Below, piece by piece: positions 47,501-63,847 of a stretch of 64,000 nt of DNA (positions are counted from its first letter, which is position 1; each line of letters opens with the position of its first letter). The DNA is from Tubiluchus corallicola (taxonomy: Eukaryota > Animalia > Priapulida). The DNA lies in the NCBI GenBank assembly GCA_030141605.1, contig JAQGDQ010000412.1, positions 62,001 to 126,000 of the forward strand, read 5' to 3'. The translations under genes were made by a program, and so were the position numbers. Under the pieces are notes generated by a model. The model worked only from the letters and a program-made list of their open reading frames with translations. It searched no databases and had not been told where the DNA came from.

Positions 47501-50500
47501 GCAAGTTAATTATAAGATTACAGATGATCAAATGTAAACTTAACAAGCTTTTTAAAACGTGCTTAATCACAAAATAATGTAAGCGGCAGTTATAATAAAT
47601 TTTGAATTTTATTTTGTTCAACTTAGATGTAAATGAATGCGATGCTACTAATCTAACACATGACTGTGACCCTCAGCTTGCTAACTGCACAAACACTGAT
47701 GGAAGTTTTTCTTGTCAGTGTATTGATGGAACAATTGACAAGAGTGGGCCAAATGTTACCGAGACTATTTGCTCAGGAAAAAATGCAGCTAACAGTTAAT
47801 TTTAAAAGATTAAGCTTCCGTTGCAAATTAAAAACTGATATTTCGAGATAACTAAATACTGTTTGTTACAGATGTTGATGAATGTGATGCAAATAATCCC
47901 ATTCATGACTGTGATCCAATCCTTGCTAACTGCTCAAATACTGACGGAAGTTTCACTTGTCAGTGTCCTGAAGGAAGATTAGCTGTGAGTGGACCAAATG
48001 GTACAGGAACTATTTGCTCAGGTAAAAACTAAACCTACACAGTTAGCTTTAACACAGCTAATTAGTATGACATAATTGATGATATACACTGAAAATCTTT
48101 CCTTACAGATATTAATGAATGTGATGCAAATAATCCAATTCATGACTGTGATCCAATCCTTGCCAACTGCACAAATACTGACGGAGGTTTTACATGTCAG
48201 TGTATTGATGGAACAATTGATTTGAGTGGATCAAATGCTGCAGGAACTATTTGTTCAGGTAAAAAATTAGCACTGTTGTTATCACTACCAAAACAAGTGT
48301 CAAGTGTATCTGCAATACATAAATAAACTAGATCATTTAATGTATACTATAAATATGTGCAAATAAATTACGCCAAAGTGAGGCAAAAGCTTTTTTACTT
48401 TTTGGAACAATGATAATGATAATAAAACATGGATAAATGTTAGACCTATCTGAAATGTAATGCAAGCAAAAGTGATCATAAATGCATACTGTACAGAGAT
48501 TTTGTACAAGTGTCATAATTATACACTATGAATCAGTACTACTAGTAAAAGGATAAATCCTTAAGGGATCAAAATTAAGTCTTTCAAGTTTCGACTAACA
48601 ACCAGATCAAACTTTGCATGTGACAATAGGGATAACTTGGTGCTTTAGAACACAATATGCAGTAACTATAATCAATGTTGAACATTACACTTTGAACATT
48701 ACGGTTTCATTTAATTCAGATATAGATGAATGTGATGCCACCAGTCCTACTCATGACTGTGATCCTGTCCTTGCTAACTGCTCAAACACCGATGGAAGTT
48801 TTACATGTCAGTGTATTGATGGGACAATTGATTTGAGTGGATCAAATGCTACAGGAACTATTTGTTCAGGTAAAAAATTAGCACTGTTGTTATCACTACC
48901 AAAACAAGTGTCAGGTGTATCTGCAATACATAAATAAACTAGATCATTTAATGTAGACTATAAATATGTGCAAATAAATTACGCCAAAGTGAGGCAAAAG
49001 CTTTTTTTACTTTTTGGAACAATGATAATGATAATAAAACATGGATAAATGTTAGACCTATCTGAAATGTAATGCAAGCTCACAAAAGTGATCATAAATG
49101 CATACTGTACAGAGATTGTGTACAAGTGTCATAATTATACACTATGAATCAGTACTACTAGTAAAAGGATAAATCCTTAAGGGATCAAAATTAAGTCTTT
49201 CAAATTTCGATTAACAACCAGATCAAACTTTGCATGTGACAATAGGGATAACTCGATGCTTTAGAACAAAATATGCAGTAACTATAATCAATGTTGGACA
49301 TTACACTTTGAACATTACAGTTTCATTTAATTCAGATATAGATGAATGTGATGCCACCAGTCCTACTCATGACTGTGACCCTGTCCTTGCTAACTGCTCA
49401 AACACCGATGGAAGTTTTACATGTCAGTGTATTGATGGGACAATTGATTTGAGTGGATCAAATGCTACAGGAACTATTTGTTCAGGTAAATAAGGAACAC
49501 TGCTGCTTTCATTCACATTATAATGGTCAAATGGGTCCTCAATACATGAATAAACTTGACCACGTAATGTATTCCATAAACATGTATTAACTGGTGCATA
49601 TAAATTATGCCAAAGTGAAGTAACCGCTTCTCTTCTCGTCTATAAGCATGTGAATACAATGATAATGAATCAAAAAACACAGTAAATGTTAGAATTACTG
49701 AAACGTTATGTAAAGACACAAAAGTGCTTATGATCAATCTTGCTAAATGCATACTGTACAGTGACGTTGATTACCAGACCAAACTTCATAAGTATGTGAA
49801 TTTAGGGTAATTCTGGTTGTAAAAAGAAAATATGCAGTAATTATATTCAATATGAAACAGTACCATTTTCTTTAACTCAGACATACGCTAATGTTATGCT
49901 GCTAATTGTACACATGACTGTTGAACATTGCGGTTTTGTTTAATTCAGATATAAATGAATGTGATGCCGCCAGTCCTACCCATGACTGTGATCCTGTCCT
50001 TGCTAACTGCTCAAATACTGACGGAGGTTTTACATGTCAGTGTATTGATGGAACAATTGATTTGAGTGGATCAAATGCTACAGGAACTATTTGTTCAGGT
50101 AAAAAATTAGCACTGTTGTTATCACTACCAAAACAAGTGTCAAGTGTATCTGCAATACATAAATAAACTAGATCATTTAATGTATACTATAAATATGTGC
50201 AAATAAATTACGCCAAAGTGAGGCAAAAGCTTTTTTTACTTTTTGGAACAATGATAATGATAATAAAACATGGATAAATGTTAGACCTATATGAGATGTA
50301 ATGCAAGCTCACAAAAGTGATCATAAATGCATACTGTACAGAGATTTTGTACAAGTGTCATAATTTTACACTATGAATTAGTACTACTAGTAAAAGGATA
50401 AATCCTTAAGGGATCAAAATTAAGTCTTTCAAGTTTCGATTAACAACCAGATCAAACTTTGCATGTGACAATAGGGATAACTCGATGCTTTAGAACAAAA

Positions 50501-62500: not shown

Positions 62501-63847
62501 ATGCAAATAATCCAATTCACAACTGTGATCTAATCCTTGCCAACTGCACAAATACTGATGGAAGTTACACATGTCAATGTATTGATGGGACAATTGATGT
62601 GAGTGGAGCAAATGGCCAAGGAACCAGTTGTTCAGGTAAAAAATAAATGCTTTAAGTTGGCAGTATTTATTAAAACCTGTATACAATTCTGGTACCTACA
62701 TGGTAGGATGACGTAACATATGTTTAAGAGAAGTTTTTAAGAAGCTTATTATTGAAATATGTGCAGATATGGACAAAAAATAAGCCCATATTGCAGTTGT
62801 TCATGTACTGGGACAAACATTAAAGCATTTAAGAGCTCCATCACTCTGCAGGTTTATTATAAGATTACAGATGATCAAAGGTAAACTTAACAAGCTTTTT
62901 AAAAGGTGCTCAATCACAAAATAACGTATTTTATAACAGCTAGGTGGAGCTCATTAACATTTTATAACGTTTGTACCACTAGCCAAAGCCCACCGAAAAT
63001 TTCTCGTTGAATAATCTTGTTGAAATTTTGGTTGATAACATAATCACGTTTTGCAAGTTTATAAAGCTTTCTGTGCCTCTCATAAACTCTGCCAGGTTTT
63101 GATTGACATACGAGCAACAAATTTTGTAAATATGTGATAACTGTAGCTACTTTGTTACGAAAACAATGTCTGTGACAGTTATAATAAATGTTGAGTTTTA
63201 TTTTGTCCAACTTAGATATAAATGAATGCGATGCTACTAATCTAACACATGACTGTGACCCTCAGCTTGCTAATTGCACAAACACTGATGGAAGTTTTTC
63301 TTGTTAGTGTATTGATGGAACAATTGGCATGAGTGGACCAAATGTTACAGGGACTATTTGCTCAGGAAAAAATGCAGCTAACAGTTAATTTTAAAAGATT
63401 AAGCTTCCGTTGGAAATTAAAAACTGGTACTTCAAGATAACTGAATACTGTTTGTTACAGATGTTGATGAATGTGATGCAAATAATCCCATTCATGACTG
63501 TGATCCAATCGTTGCTAACTGCACAAATACTGACGGAAGTTTCAGTTGTCAGTGTCCTGAAGGAAGATTAGCTGTGAGTGGACCAAATGGTACAGGAACT
63601 ATTTGCTCAGGTAAAAACTAAACCTACACAGTTAGCTTTAACATAGCTAATTAGTATCTTATAATTGATGATATACACTGAAAATATTTCCTTACAGATG
63701 TTAATGAATGTGATGTAAATAATCCAATTCATAACTGTGATCTAATCCTTGCCAACTGCACAAATACTGATGGAAGTTTCACATGTCAATGTATTGATGG
63801 GACAATTGATGTGAGTGGAGCAAATGGCCAAGGAACCAGTTGTTCAG
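20528..63847 (+). CDS. Giant secreted/membrane protein: signal peptide, 6 C-type lectin-like domains, >=38 full-length calcium-binding EGF exons; 3' end outside the window
   Basis: Signal-peptide exon 20528-20603 ([21 protein letters not shown]) and 18 lectin exons join in one open frame (2980 nt, ending in phase 1 at 43314), matching the phase 1-1 EGF exons from 44504 on. No terminal exon, TM segment or proper stop exon was seen before 64000. That all parts form one transcript is inferred. Confidence 0.8.
21250..22139. repeat. AT-rich minisatellite of 12/13-bp units (CTATTTTACTAA / CTATTTTTACTGA), often as a 25-bp dimer
   Basis: Seen directly; about 890 bp in the intron after the signal-peptide exon. 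Confidence 0.97.
22338..22797. mobile_element. piggyBac-type non-autonomous element with TTAA TSD
   Basis: TTAA|CCCTTTCAGTCCC ... GGGTATGAAAGGG|TTAA; internal palindrome TGTATCCCACGGGAT(A/G)CA occurs twice (~22469, ~22765). Confidence 0.85.
23158..23300 (-). mobile_element. hAT (Buster/Charlie-like) transposase C-terminal dimerisation-domain fragment
   Basis: [32 protein letters not shown] matches the CExxFS...K...RNRL motif of hAT transposases. Confidence 0.8.
23614..23742. repeat. (CAT)n microsatellite
   Basis: Seen directly. Confidence 0.97.
23924..35014 (+). CDS. C-type lectin-like domains 1-3 (module copy 1), 9 exons
   Basis: Exons 23924-24107, 24259-24419, 25677-25832 | 26680-26914, 27559-27689, 29327-29446 | 33308-33518, 34039-34213, 34918-35014. 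Motifs CPEDF..CY, C..GASLAKI, WLG/WVGL, WDDGS, VCE/ICE; three exons per domain. Confidence 0.88.
25340..25639. mobile_element. TTAA-flanked MITE, Kolobok-like
   Basis: TTAA|AGCACAAGAAAC ... CTTTCTTGTCCT|TTAA; a related partial copy lies at ~28350-28461. Confidence 0.6.
28135..28306. repeat. (GA)n/(GATA)n microsatellite
   Basis: Seen directly. Confidence 0.95.
29461..29870. repeat. (GTA)n/(GCA)n microsatellite starting 14 nt after a splice donor
   Basis: Seen directly; on the minus strand it follows an AATAAA at ~29880-29885. Confidence 0.98.
35807..43314 (+). CDS. C-type lectin-like domains 4-6 (module copy 2), 9 exons
   Basis: Exons 35807-35990, 36410-36543, 37143-37289 | 38149-38383, 39675-39805, 40763-40882 | 41349-41559, 42337-42511, 43218-43314; paralogous exon by exon to copy 1 with the same phases. 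Confidence 0.88.
38657..38795. repeat. (GT)n/(GC) microsatellite
   Basis: Seen directly. Confidence 0.95.
39109..39378. repeat. (AAT)n/(GAT)n compound microsatellite
   Basis: Seen directly. Confidence 0.95.
40856..41018 (+). repeat. 42-43-bp tandem repeat (4 copies) of an exon 3' end plus its splice donor
   Basis: TTTGTGAGATGCC..GCCACAGACAGGTGAGAT variants at 40856, 40899, 40942 and 40984. Confidence 0.85.
44228..44396. repeat. (AAT)n microsatellite
   Basis: Seen directly. Confidence 0.97.
44504..63847 (+). CDS. Array of single-exon cbEGF domains (150 nt; two of 144 nt), phase 1-1
   Basis: Exon starts: 44504, 45609, 46174, 47143, 47627, 47872, 48109, 48720, 49336, 49949, 50565, 51181, 51794, 52409, 53025, 53641, 53886, 54123, 54854, 55099, 55336, 56921, 57166, 57403, 58133, 58377, 59576, 59821, 60058, 60792, 61037, 61274, 62004, 62249, 62486, 63216, 63461, 63698; broken copies at 46711, 58614, 58849. 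Consensus D(I/V)(D/N)EC..HDCDP.LANC.NTDGSF.CQC..G..C. Confidence 0.92.
46826..47036. repeat. (AATAGC)n(AATAAC)n hexanucleotide microsatellite
   Basis: Seen directly; occupies the position paralogous to the (AAT)n at 44228. Confidence 0.97.
48180..53790. repeat. ~616-bp exon+intron tandem array (9 units) with a 1845-bp higher-order period
   Basis: Exon start spacings 616, 613, 616, 616, 613, 615, 616, 616; two intron types are interleaved. Confidence 0.95.

What the first reader, a model, noticed from the sequence alone, without database searches (positions are those of the whole stretch)
47627..63370. One EGF exon subtype has GA instead of GT donors in 6 of 8 copies, and those copies hold the damaging mutations
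Seen: the '[12 protein letters not shown]' exon ends CAG|GAAAAA at 47777, 55004, 58283, 59726, 62154 and 63366, but CAG|GTAAAA at 57071 and 60942 (and in the chimeric exon at 53791). GA travels with a distinct intron haplotype (GCAGCTAACAG versus GCAGTTAAAAG), so it is a propagated variant, not random error. Damaging-looking lesions of this subtype fall only in GA copies: G>E (47627 exon), loss of Cys4 and P>L (54854), G>V (58133), and a premature TAG at 63305 plus D>G (63216). Inference: either these are skipped pseudo-exons spread by unequal crossover, harmless because the exons are phase 1-1 and a multiple of 3, or they use non-canonical GA-AG introns or a weak in-frame GT 18 nt downstream (CA|GTTAAT). 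Under skipping, a single nucleotide would switch each repeat unit between 2 and 3 EGF domains.
Basis: partly seen in the sequence, partly recalled or inferred. Interest (0 to 1): 0.82.

Follow-up and report, generated by a model that had tools for sequence, protein, structure and literature searches.

The report
Dead splice signal copied through array
In an invertebrate gene built from about 40 repeated EGF exons, six of eight copies of one exon type end in GA instead of the normal GT splice signal; this is likely one inherited splice-killing mutation spread by repeat turnover, and the gene likely stays in frame by skipping those exons or by cutting at a spare GT inside them, which is untested because no RNA data were found.

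Summary
The GA donors are real: 6 of 8 type-A exons, against GT at the other 34 of 40 EGF-exon donors, and GA is also read in DNA contigs of two studies. All listed lesions are in the window; none was confirmed in reads. dN/dS is uninformative. Two corrections: the worst-damaged exons (58614, 58849) have GT donors, and the 'GA haplotype' also occurs with GT in both samples. New: all six private protein-changing hits lie at exon nt 88-136, at or behind an in-frame internal GT (CTT|GTCAGT) 63 nt upstream of the GA (p 0.005-0.045). Best reading: one donor-killing mutation spread by unequal crossover, frame rescued by whole-exon skipping (0.36) or by the internal donor giving a three-cysteine half-EGF (0.30); decayed tail or assembly noise 0.22; functional GA-AG 0.09. 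Closest known: splice variants inside LPA KIV-2 repeats. No RNA holder was listed. The scan's notes showed no earlier report of this on other DNA.

The parts
47627..47776 (+). type-A cbEGF exon, GA donor at 47777; G45E at 47762; internal GT at 47714
   Evidence: Pfam EGF_CA 37.1 bits
54854..55003 (+). type-A exon, GA donor at 55004; Cys4>Ser at 54941 (this base is also the G of the internal GT, which is lost), P41L at 54977
   Evidence: EGF_CA 30.6 bits
56921..57070 (+). type-A exon, GT donor, intact
58133..58282 (+). type-A exon, GA donor at 58283 (one A missing in the run, intron 94 nt); G45V at 58268; internal GT at 58220
59576..59725 (+). type-A exon, GA donor at 59726, no lesion; internal GT at 59663; +19 GT at 59744
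60792..60941 (+). type-A exon, GT donor, intact
62004..62153 (+). type-A exon, GA donor at 62154, no lesion; internal GT at 62091
63216..63365 (+). type-A exon, GA donor at 63366; TAG at 63305 (position +3 of the internal GT at 63303), D37G at 63327
53641..53790 (+). chimeric exon (D-type 5' part, A-type 3' end), GT donor
53886..63847 (+). block of A-B-C units (period about 1.2 kb; introns 95, 87 and about 580-730 nt); 8 type-B and 6 intact type-C exons here, all GT
   Evidence: X4 contig goes back 1161 + 51 letters
58614..58995 (+). two broken exons with GT donors (58614-58764 frameshift and stop; 58849-58995 stop); real lesion or local assembly noise
   Evidence: middle 77% identical to a sister, flanks 99% and 94%
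44504..53174 (+). first part of the EGF array: two 144-nt exons, ten type-D exons, one A-B-C' unit, one headless and tailless exon fragment (46712-46826)
23924..43314 (+). 18 upstream exons in two duplicated blocks, C-type-lectin-like; open chain of 1015 aa into the first EGF exon, all donors GT; start of the gene not located
   Evidence: one piece hits Pfam Lectin_C at E=0.0017, below the cut-off; 3 other pieces gave no lectin hit

Best explanation
Six of eight type-A EGF exons carry the same GT-to-GA change at their splice donor, likely a single donor-killing mutation that unequal crossover copied through the array, and these exons are likely skipped whole so that the message stays in frame. 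Shown: the GA, its shared intron context, the 150-nt phase 1-1 exons, recombinant copies, and an open frame to the window end if the six GA exons and the two broken GT exons are left out. Inferred: that GA is not used, that the upstream C (or E) donor joins the B acceptor, and that the skipped exons now collect stops and Cys/Gly changes. The product would be a large secreted or membrane protein with lectin-like domains and an EGF stalk of two instead of three domains per GA unit.
For: One homologous site only: GT at 34 of the other 34 EGF-exon donors, 18 of 18 upstream exon donors and 4 of 4 sulfotransferase donors looked at (the upstream scan looked for GT only, so it shows that no GA is needed, not that none is possible). 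GA scores 0.95 vs 6.5-11.8 for the gene's own donors. Hits at near-invariant positions or stops in 4 of 6 GA exons vs 2 of 30 intact GT exons (both F>Y), p=0.003. Private changes per non-synonymous site in GA exons (6 in about 694) are close to the intron rate (33 of 3480 in the long intron). Mosaic copies: 3 of 6 GA exons have the upstream haplotype of the GT copies; GT also exists on the GA intron haplotype, as expected if GA arose on it by one change. Skipping gives 2563 aa open to the window end; GA use meets a stop. The upstream intron is longer than the 200-250 nt above which exon definition, whose failure gives skipping, dominates in Drosophila (PMC2767349, passages).
Against: No RNA. 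The 5' 87 nt of the GA exons show no decay: 0 private protein-changing changes where 3.9-5.7 are expected at the intron rate (P 0.02-0.003). piN/piS of GA exons is 0.30, not near 1, and B exons of the same units have nearly as many private non-synonymous changes (5 vs 6), only milder ones. The downstream intron is 95 nt, where intron definition predicts retention rather than skipping. The two broken GT exons need a separate excuse (assembly noise or skipping). Lesions are unconfirmed in reads. The lesion test is post hoc.
Confidence: 0.36

Rival explanations
1. The GA donor is dead, but splicing falls back on an in-frame internal GT (CTT|GTCAGT, exon nt 88), 63 nt upstream. The first 87 nt stay coding (a half-EGF with Cys1-3, one cysteine unpaired) and the last 63 nt become part of a 158-nt intron and decay. 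The 54854 copy has lost this GT and would be skipped.
For: All 6 private protein-changing hits lie at nt 88-136, none in nt 3-87: P=0.005 for this boundary, 0.018 for any 49-nt window, 0.012 and 0.045 if the two hits at nt 136 are one event; B+C+D exons have 12 such changes before and 5 after nt 88 (Fisher p=0.005; 6 vs 4 for those I judged de novo, p=0.034). The site scores 6.8, like the normal donor (6.5), top 2.3% of 1155 GTs in the array. It puts the 63305 stop in the intron and gives 2708 aa open. The new intron stays short. Precedent: LPA KIV-2 4733G>A raises use of an in-frame internal site that deletes a structural cysteine (PMC7613585, passages).
Against: An unpaired cysteine in five domains should cost folding (established for EGF and kringle domains; inference here), and strong selection on a half-domain is odd. 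The matrix rests on 15 donors and includes a GTCAGT donor. The same site lies unused in most B and D exons. Conversion from working copies could clean the 5' part instead (the three private silent changes there match B/C alleles). A 2-base deletion near exon nt 30 appears at low depth in X2 and X3 (6.5 and 10.9; unphased, absent in X1). The boundary was noticed after seeing the lesions.
Confidence: 0.3
2. The array tail is decaying or the picture is partly assembly noise: GA leads mainly to retention of the 95-nt intron (stop after 7 codons, at about aa 1220 for the first GA copy), or the broken GT exons at 58614 end this allele, so downstream lesions say nothing about GA.
For: Retention gives a stop in all copies; short introns tend to be retained when recognition fails. 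With the two broken GT exons spliced in, the frame stops there in any model. B and C exons of the A-B-C block have piN/piS near 0.7. The 58614 patch (77% identity amid 94-99%) shows that local errors or lesions occur. LPA KIV-2.1 +1G>A is listed as a null allele (PMC7613587, passages).
Against: All 6 cysteines are kept in 30 of 30 intact GT exons and between-subtype dN/dS is 0.25-0.48; the 18 upstream exons are open; four of the six lesions lie upstream of 58614; random errors would not favour GA exons or their 3' part; GA is present in two studies' samples.
Confidence: 0.22
3. GA is a working non-canonical donor (GA-AG intron), so the exons are included.
For: The context AG|GAA matches working GA donors of Eurytemora affinis (PMC5714493, part 1 of 2 read) and Oikopleura (PMC7072748, passages); 2 of 6 GA exons are intact; piN/piS 0.30; exon divergence between GA and GT copies (3.4%) is far below intron divergence (13.5%).
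Against: AG|GAA follows trivially from one change in CAG|GTAAAA; no +5G or +6T to compensate; 0 of 56 other donors looked at in the window are GA, against about 10-12% in Eurytemora; no GT six bases upstream as reported for FGFR; it would translate a lost cysteine and a stop. GT on the same intron haplotype removes the argument that GA is as old as the haplotype.
Confidence: 0.09
4. The weak GT 18 nt downstream (ACA|GTTAAT) is used, adding six residues.
For: In frame in 5 of 6 GA copies.
Against: 4 of 9 matches to the U1 consensus and score -7.3; frameshift at 58283 (stop at aa 2267); leaves all lesions coding; present in GT copies too.
Confidence: 0.03

Closest known systems
Splice variants inside the LPA kringle IV type-2 repeat (4733G>A, 4925G>A, KIV-2.1 +1G>A); PMC7613585 and PMC7613587, passages read
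   Same: Coding tandem repeat of exon-intron units for a disulfide-bonded extracellular domain; a splice-site variant sits in some units; one variant raises use of an in-frame internal site that removes a structural cysteine.
   Different: There the effects are measured (lower protein; +1G>A null). Here the variant hits the invariant +2 T, is in most copies of one subtype, each exon is a whole symmetric domain so clean skipping is possible, and nothing is measured.
GA-AG introns of Eurytemora affinis and Oikopleura dioica; PMC5714493 (part 1 of 2), PMC7072748 (passages)
   Same: AG at the exon end and A at +3.
   Different: Those are thousands of independent, RNA-supported introns; here one homologous site amplified six times, with all other donors GT.
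FGFR1-3 GA 5' splice site (Brackenridge 2003; seen only as cited in PMC7072748 and PMC5714493)
   Same: A GA donor in a GT-AG organism.
   Different: Reported to depend on a canonical site six bases upstream, which is absent here; FGFR's site is conserved across vertebrates, this one is a repeat variant.
Schistosoma mansoni SmPoMuc genes; PMC2576457, passages
   Same: About 1-kb near-identical exon-intron units under concerted evolution in an invertebrate, with exon loss and aberrant splicing in transcripts.
   Different: 27-bp mucin exons; no donor mutation in a subset of units in the passages read.
Calcium-binding EGF arrays (Pfam PF07645)
   Same: 8 of 8 exons tested pass the Pfam cut-off; one domain per phase 1-1 exon.
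   Different: No close relative on record: the best 150 hits among 1.84 billion representatives are at most 60% identical.

Membership tests
Calcium-binding EGF domain (PF07645) | Score above the curated cut-off, six cysteines | tested here: met
   8 of 8 exons tested score 30.6-43.2 bits vs cut-off 27; six Cys in all intact exons but 54854
Skipped pseudo-exon | Defective splice site | tested here: met
   GA at +1/+2, score 0.95 vs 6.5
Skipped pseudo-exon | Neutral decay over the whole exon | tested here: inconclusive
   Severe hits enriched (p=0.003-0.012) but confined to nt 88-136; piN/piS 0.30
Skipped pseudo-exon | Absent from mRNA | not testable with these tools
   No RNA holder listed
Functional GA-AG intron, copepod/larvacean type | Exon ends in AG and intron +3 is A | tested here: met
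   CAG|GAA in 6 of 6; expected from one change in CAG|GTAAAA
Functional GA-AG intron, copepod/larvacean type | GA donors common at independent introns of the genome | tested here: not met
   0 of 56 other donors looked at in this window (34 EGF, 18 upstream, 4 sulfotransferase); window only, no genome held
Functional GA-AG intron, copepod/larvacean type | Spliced reads across the GA-AG intron | not testable with these tools
   Laid runs cover introns like exons and show no exon-exon joint: they are DNA
FGFR-type GA donor | Canonical donor six bases upstream | tested here: not met
   Exon end reads TTTGCTCAG; no GT at -6 (sequence; feature)
Splice variant within a coding tandem repeat (LPA KIV-2 kind) | Variant in a subset of near-identical exon-intron units | tested here: met
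   6 of 8 type-A units; both states in two studies' samples
Splice variant within a coding tandem repeat (LPA KIV-2 kind) | Copy number or variant share differs among individuals | tested here: inconclusive
   T share at the donor about 9-10% in X1/X2 and 69% in X4, but contig depth is no copy number
Splice variant within a coding tandem repeat (LPA KIV-2 kind) | Measured effect on splicing or protein | not testable with these tools
   Needs RNA or a minigene

The most novel reading that the evidence does not exclude
One donor mutation turned a whole EGF exon into a new, shorter exon (87 nt, half-EGF with a free cysteine) through a pre-existing internal GT, and this half-domain was amplified through the array and is kept coding, so the share of GA units sets how many free-cysteine cross-linking sites or hinges the stalk carries: birth of a new repeated module by splice-site shift, caught while its discarded 3' part decays.
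Probability: 0.12. Interest if true: 0.7.

Novelty: new variant of a known kind. Interest (0 to 1): 0.38.

Why it matters
If right, exon counts in long domain arrays overstate the protein: a splice-dead unit can become the majority form of a subtype by repeat turnover, and automatic annotation would miss it. The array is also a built-in experiment: near-identical units differing at one donor base, with short flanking introns and a candidate internal donor, allow a direct count of skipping, internal-donor use, retention and GA use in a little-studied animal. It does not point to new splicing machinery, and the gene's function is unknown beyond its domain make-up.

Tried and rejected
No whole genome is held, so no genome-wide GA count or U1 check. 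Run search: 6 runs listed, 4 hold the stretch (share 0.27-0.37), no RNA holder listed; X6 (RNA is a guess) laid nothing; no verdict on expression. The lay on the 63216 exon gave no row at 63305 and no listed piece with the window's allele (156 pieces not shown): no verdict on the stop. Protein searches found no database model of this gene: 0 hits for an A exon and for a lectin-like exon; only generic EGF proteins, at most 60% identical. The sulfotransferase-like ORF at 13747-14334 gave 31-39% hits in insects, crinoids and others and does not place the organism; 'priapulid' comes from other notes of this scan and was not checked. dN/dS and piN/piS: intervals overlap, uninformative. Rejected: sequencing error as the source of GA; GA-specific haplotype; 4/6 vs 0/2 as evidence; the +19 GT. 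Literature: searches (0 papers; 0 papers) showed no report of a donor-dead exon amplified in an EGF array or of GA donors in priapulids; the library lacks most subscription papers, and no supplements were read.
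Full report
What is there. The finding lies in the 3' part of a large plus-strand gene of an invertebrate animal. Eighteen exons between 23924 and 43314, in two duplicated blocks, chain in phase into an open frame of 1015 residues, all with GT donors (exons picked by eye, scan limited to GT). 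They look like C-type lectin domains; one of four pieces tested hit Pfam Lectin_C, below its cut-off. From 44504 to the window end follow 40 EGF exons with acceptor and donor: 36 of 150 nt, 2 of 144 nt and 2 broken ones, plus one fragment. All 8 tested pass the calcium-binding EGF cut-off. From 53886 on they form A-B-C units of about 1.2 kb. No close relative is on record. Other notes of this scan call the genome priapulid-like; I could not check that.

The observation. Six of eight type-A exons end CAG|GAAAAA and the other 34 EGF exons end in GT. Coordinates and the six lesions are as stated. In the window GA goes with one intron haplotype, 13.5% diverged from the other, while the exons differ by 3.4%. 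Public DNA contigs confirm the GA: at 62155 T makes up 985.5 of 10957.4 depth in X1, 43.4 of 424.5 in X2 (same sample) and 24.7 of 35.6 in X4 from another study; X1 record 8 matches the GA junction letter for letter. X1-X3 may or may not come from the window's individual: seven window letters were not read in X1. Two pieces, X2 record 15 and X4 record 22, carry GT with none of the letters of the window's GT haplotype, so GT exists on the 'GA' haplotype; GA is thus most simply one T-to-A change on an older intron variant. Three of six GA exons have the upstream haplotype of the GT copies, which shows crossover or conversion within the exon.

Do the GA copies hold the damage? Within the subtype, 4 of 6 against 0 of 2 is chance-level (p=0.43). 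Against the array, counting stops and changes at positions invariant in at least 34 of the 35 other exons, it is 4 of 6 against 2 of 30 (p=0.003), or 4 of 32 with the two broken GT exons (p=0.012). Counting any residue seen only once, it is 6 in 6 exons against 12 in 30 (p=0.065). piN/piS is 0.30 for GA exons, 0.70 for B, 0.71 for C and 0.15 for D, with wide overlapping intervals. B exons of the same six units have 5 private non-synonymous changes against 6, but mild ones. So severity, not number, is enriched; the test is post hoc; and none of the lesions was confirmed in reads. The worst exons of the array, 58614 and 58849, have GT donors; the first is 77% identical to a sister in its middle amid flanks of 99% and 94%, which looks like local assembly noise but was not tested.

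All six private protein-changing hits sit at exon nt 88, 90, 112, 124, 136 and 136; none in nt 3-87, where 3.9-5.7 would be expected at the intron rate. Chance: 0.005 for that boundary, 0.018 for any window of that span, 0.012 and 0.045 if the two hits at nt 136 are one event. At nt 88 lies an in-frame GT, CTT|GTCAGT, the only in-frame exonic GT with 5 or more matches to the U1 consensus. On a matrix from 15 of this gene's donors it scores 6.8, against 6.5 for the normal donor, 0.95 for GA and -7.3 for the +19 GT (a small, partly circular matrix). Used, it keeps 87 nt (three cysteines), makes a 158-nt intron and buries the 63305 stop. The Cys4>Ser change at 54941 destroys this GT. The polarity could also come from conversion of the 5' part by working copies, and a low-depth 2-base deletion near nt 30 in X2 and X3 would speak against a coding 5' part if it lies in a GA copy.

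Frames. With the two broken exons left out: skipping all GA exons gives 2563 residues open to the window end; the internal donor (54854 skipped) 2708 open; GA use stops at 2743 (63305); the +19 GT stops at 2267; retention of the first GA intron stops at 1220. With the broken exons spliced in, GA use stops at 2286 and GA skipping at 2136.

How it most likely works. Shown: a shared GA in a recombining array. Inferred: CAG|GTAAAA donors rely on the exon-side match and the GT, with no +5G or +6T, so the change likely kills the site. The long upstream intron favours exon definition and skipping, the 95-nt downstream intron favours retention or a nearby donor (Drosophila rule of 200-250 nt as summarised in PMC2767349, passages; not tested in this animal). 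A variant that stopped the protein at the first GA copy would be unlikely to spread while 30 of 30 intact GT exons keep all six cysteines, so in-frame rescue is likely (0.66 together): skipping 0.36, internal donor 0.30. Decayed tail, retention or assembly noise 0.22; working GA-AG 0.09; +19 GT 0.03.

Comparison with what is known. Working GA donors are common in Eurytemora (12% GA or GG among 297 introns; PMC5714493, part 1 of 2 read) and Oikopleura (PMC7072748, passages) with the same AG|GAA context, but here 0 of 56 other donors looked at are GA, so membership fails on frequency within this window; the FGFR type fails on the upstream GT. The closest working model is the LPA KIV-2 repeat, where splice variants sit inside a coding repeat, one raising use of an in-frame internal site that removes a cysteine and another (+1G>A) giving null alleles (PMC7613585, PMC7613587, passages). 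SmPoMuc shows similar exon-intron repeat units with aberrant splicing in an invertebrate (PMC2576457, passages). Searches showed no report of this case; the scan's notes had none near, by sequence or by words.

Verdict. A real feature and a new variant of a known kind: a splice-site mutation amplified inside a domain array. Interest 0.38; the half-EGF reading would deserve 0.7 if shown and kept by selection (probability 0.12).

Noticed in passing
window 58614-58995: Two broken EGF exons with intact AG/GT ends; the first is a C/B chimera whose middle is 77% identical to a sister while flanks are 94-99%. Looks like local consensus noise, but if real and spliced it ends this allele at about aa 2140-2290.
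   Followed up: partly
window 23924-43314: Two tandem blocks of nine exons each, C-type-lectin-like by recalled motif and one weak Pfam hit; open frame, dN/dS 0.62 over 322 codons between blocks. Signal-peptide exon not located.
   Followed up: partly
window 44390-45000 and 47030-47580: The first EGF exon with its AAT/AAC microsatellite is duplicated; an exon fragment at 46712-46826 runs into the second microsatellite. The junction at about 47580 is also seen as a loose end in X1.
   Followed up: no
window about 55500-56800: About 1.3-kb insertion next to a TA run inside the array; similar sequence follows a TA run at about 36800. Possibly a non-autonomous transposon.
   Followed up: no
window 2300-11200 and 13747-14337: A cytosolic sulfotransferase-like gene (by recalled motif; 4 donors looked at, all GT) and a heparan sulfate 3-O-sulfotransferase-like ORF.
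   Followed up: partly
window 57403-63847, type-C exons: Five of six type-C exons share D12N and P15L, three A6V, two F27Y: amplified missense variants in GT-donor exons.
   Followed up: no
window 21248-22139: AT-rich 25-bp satellite of about 36 copies upstream of the gene.
   Followed up: no
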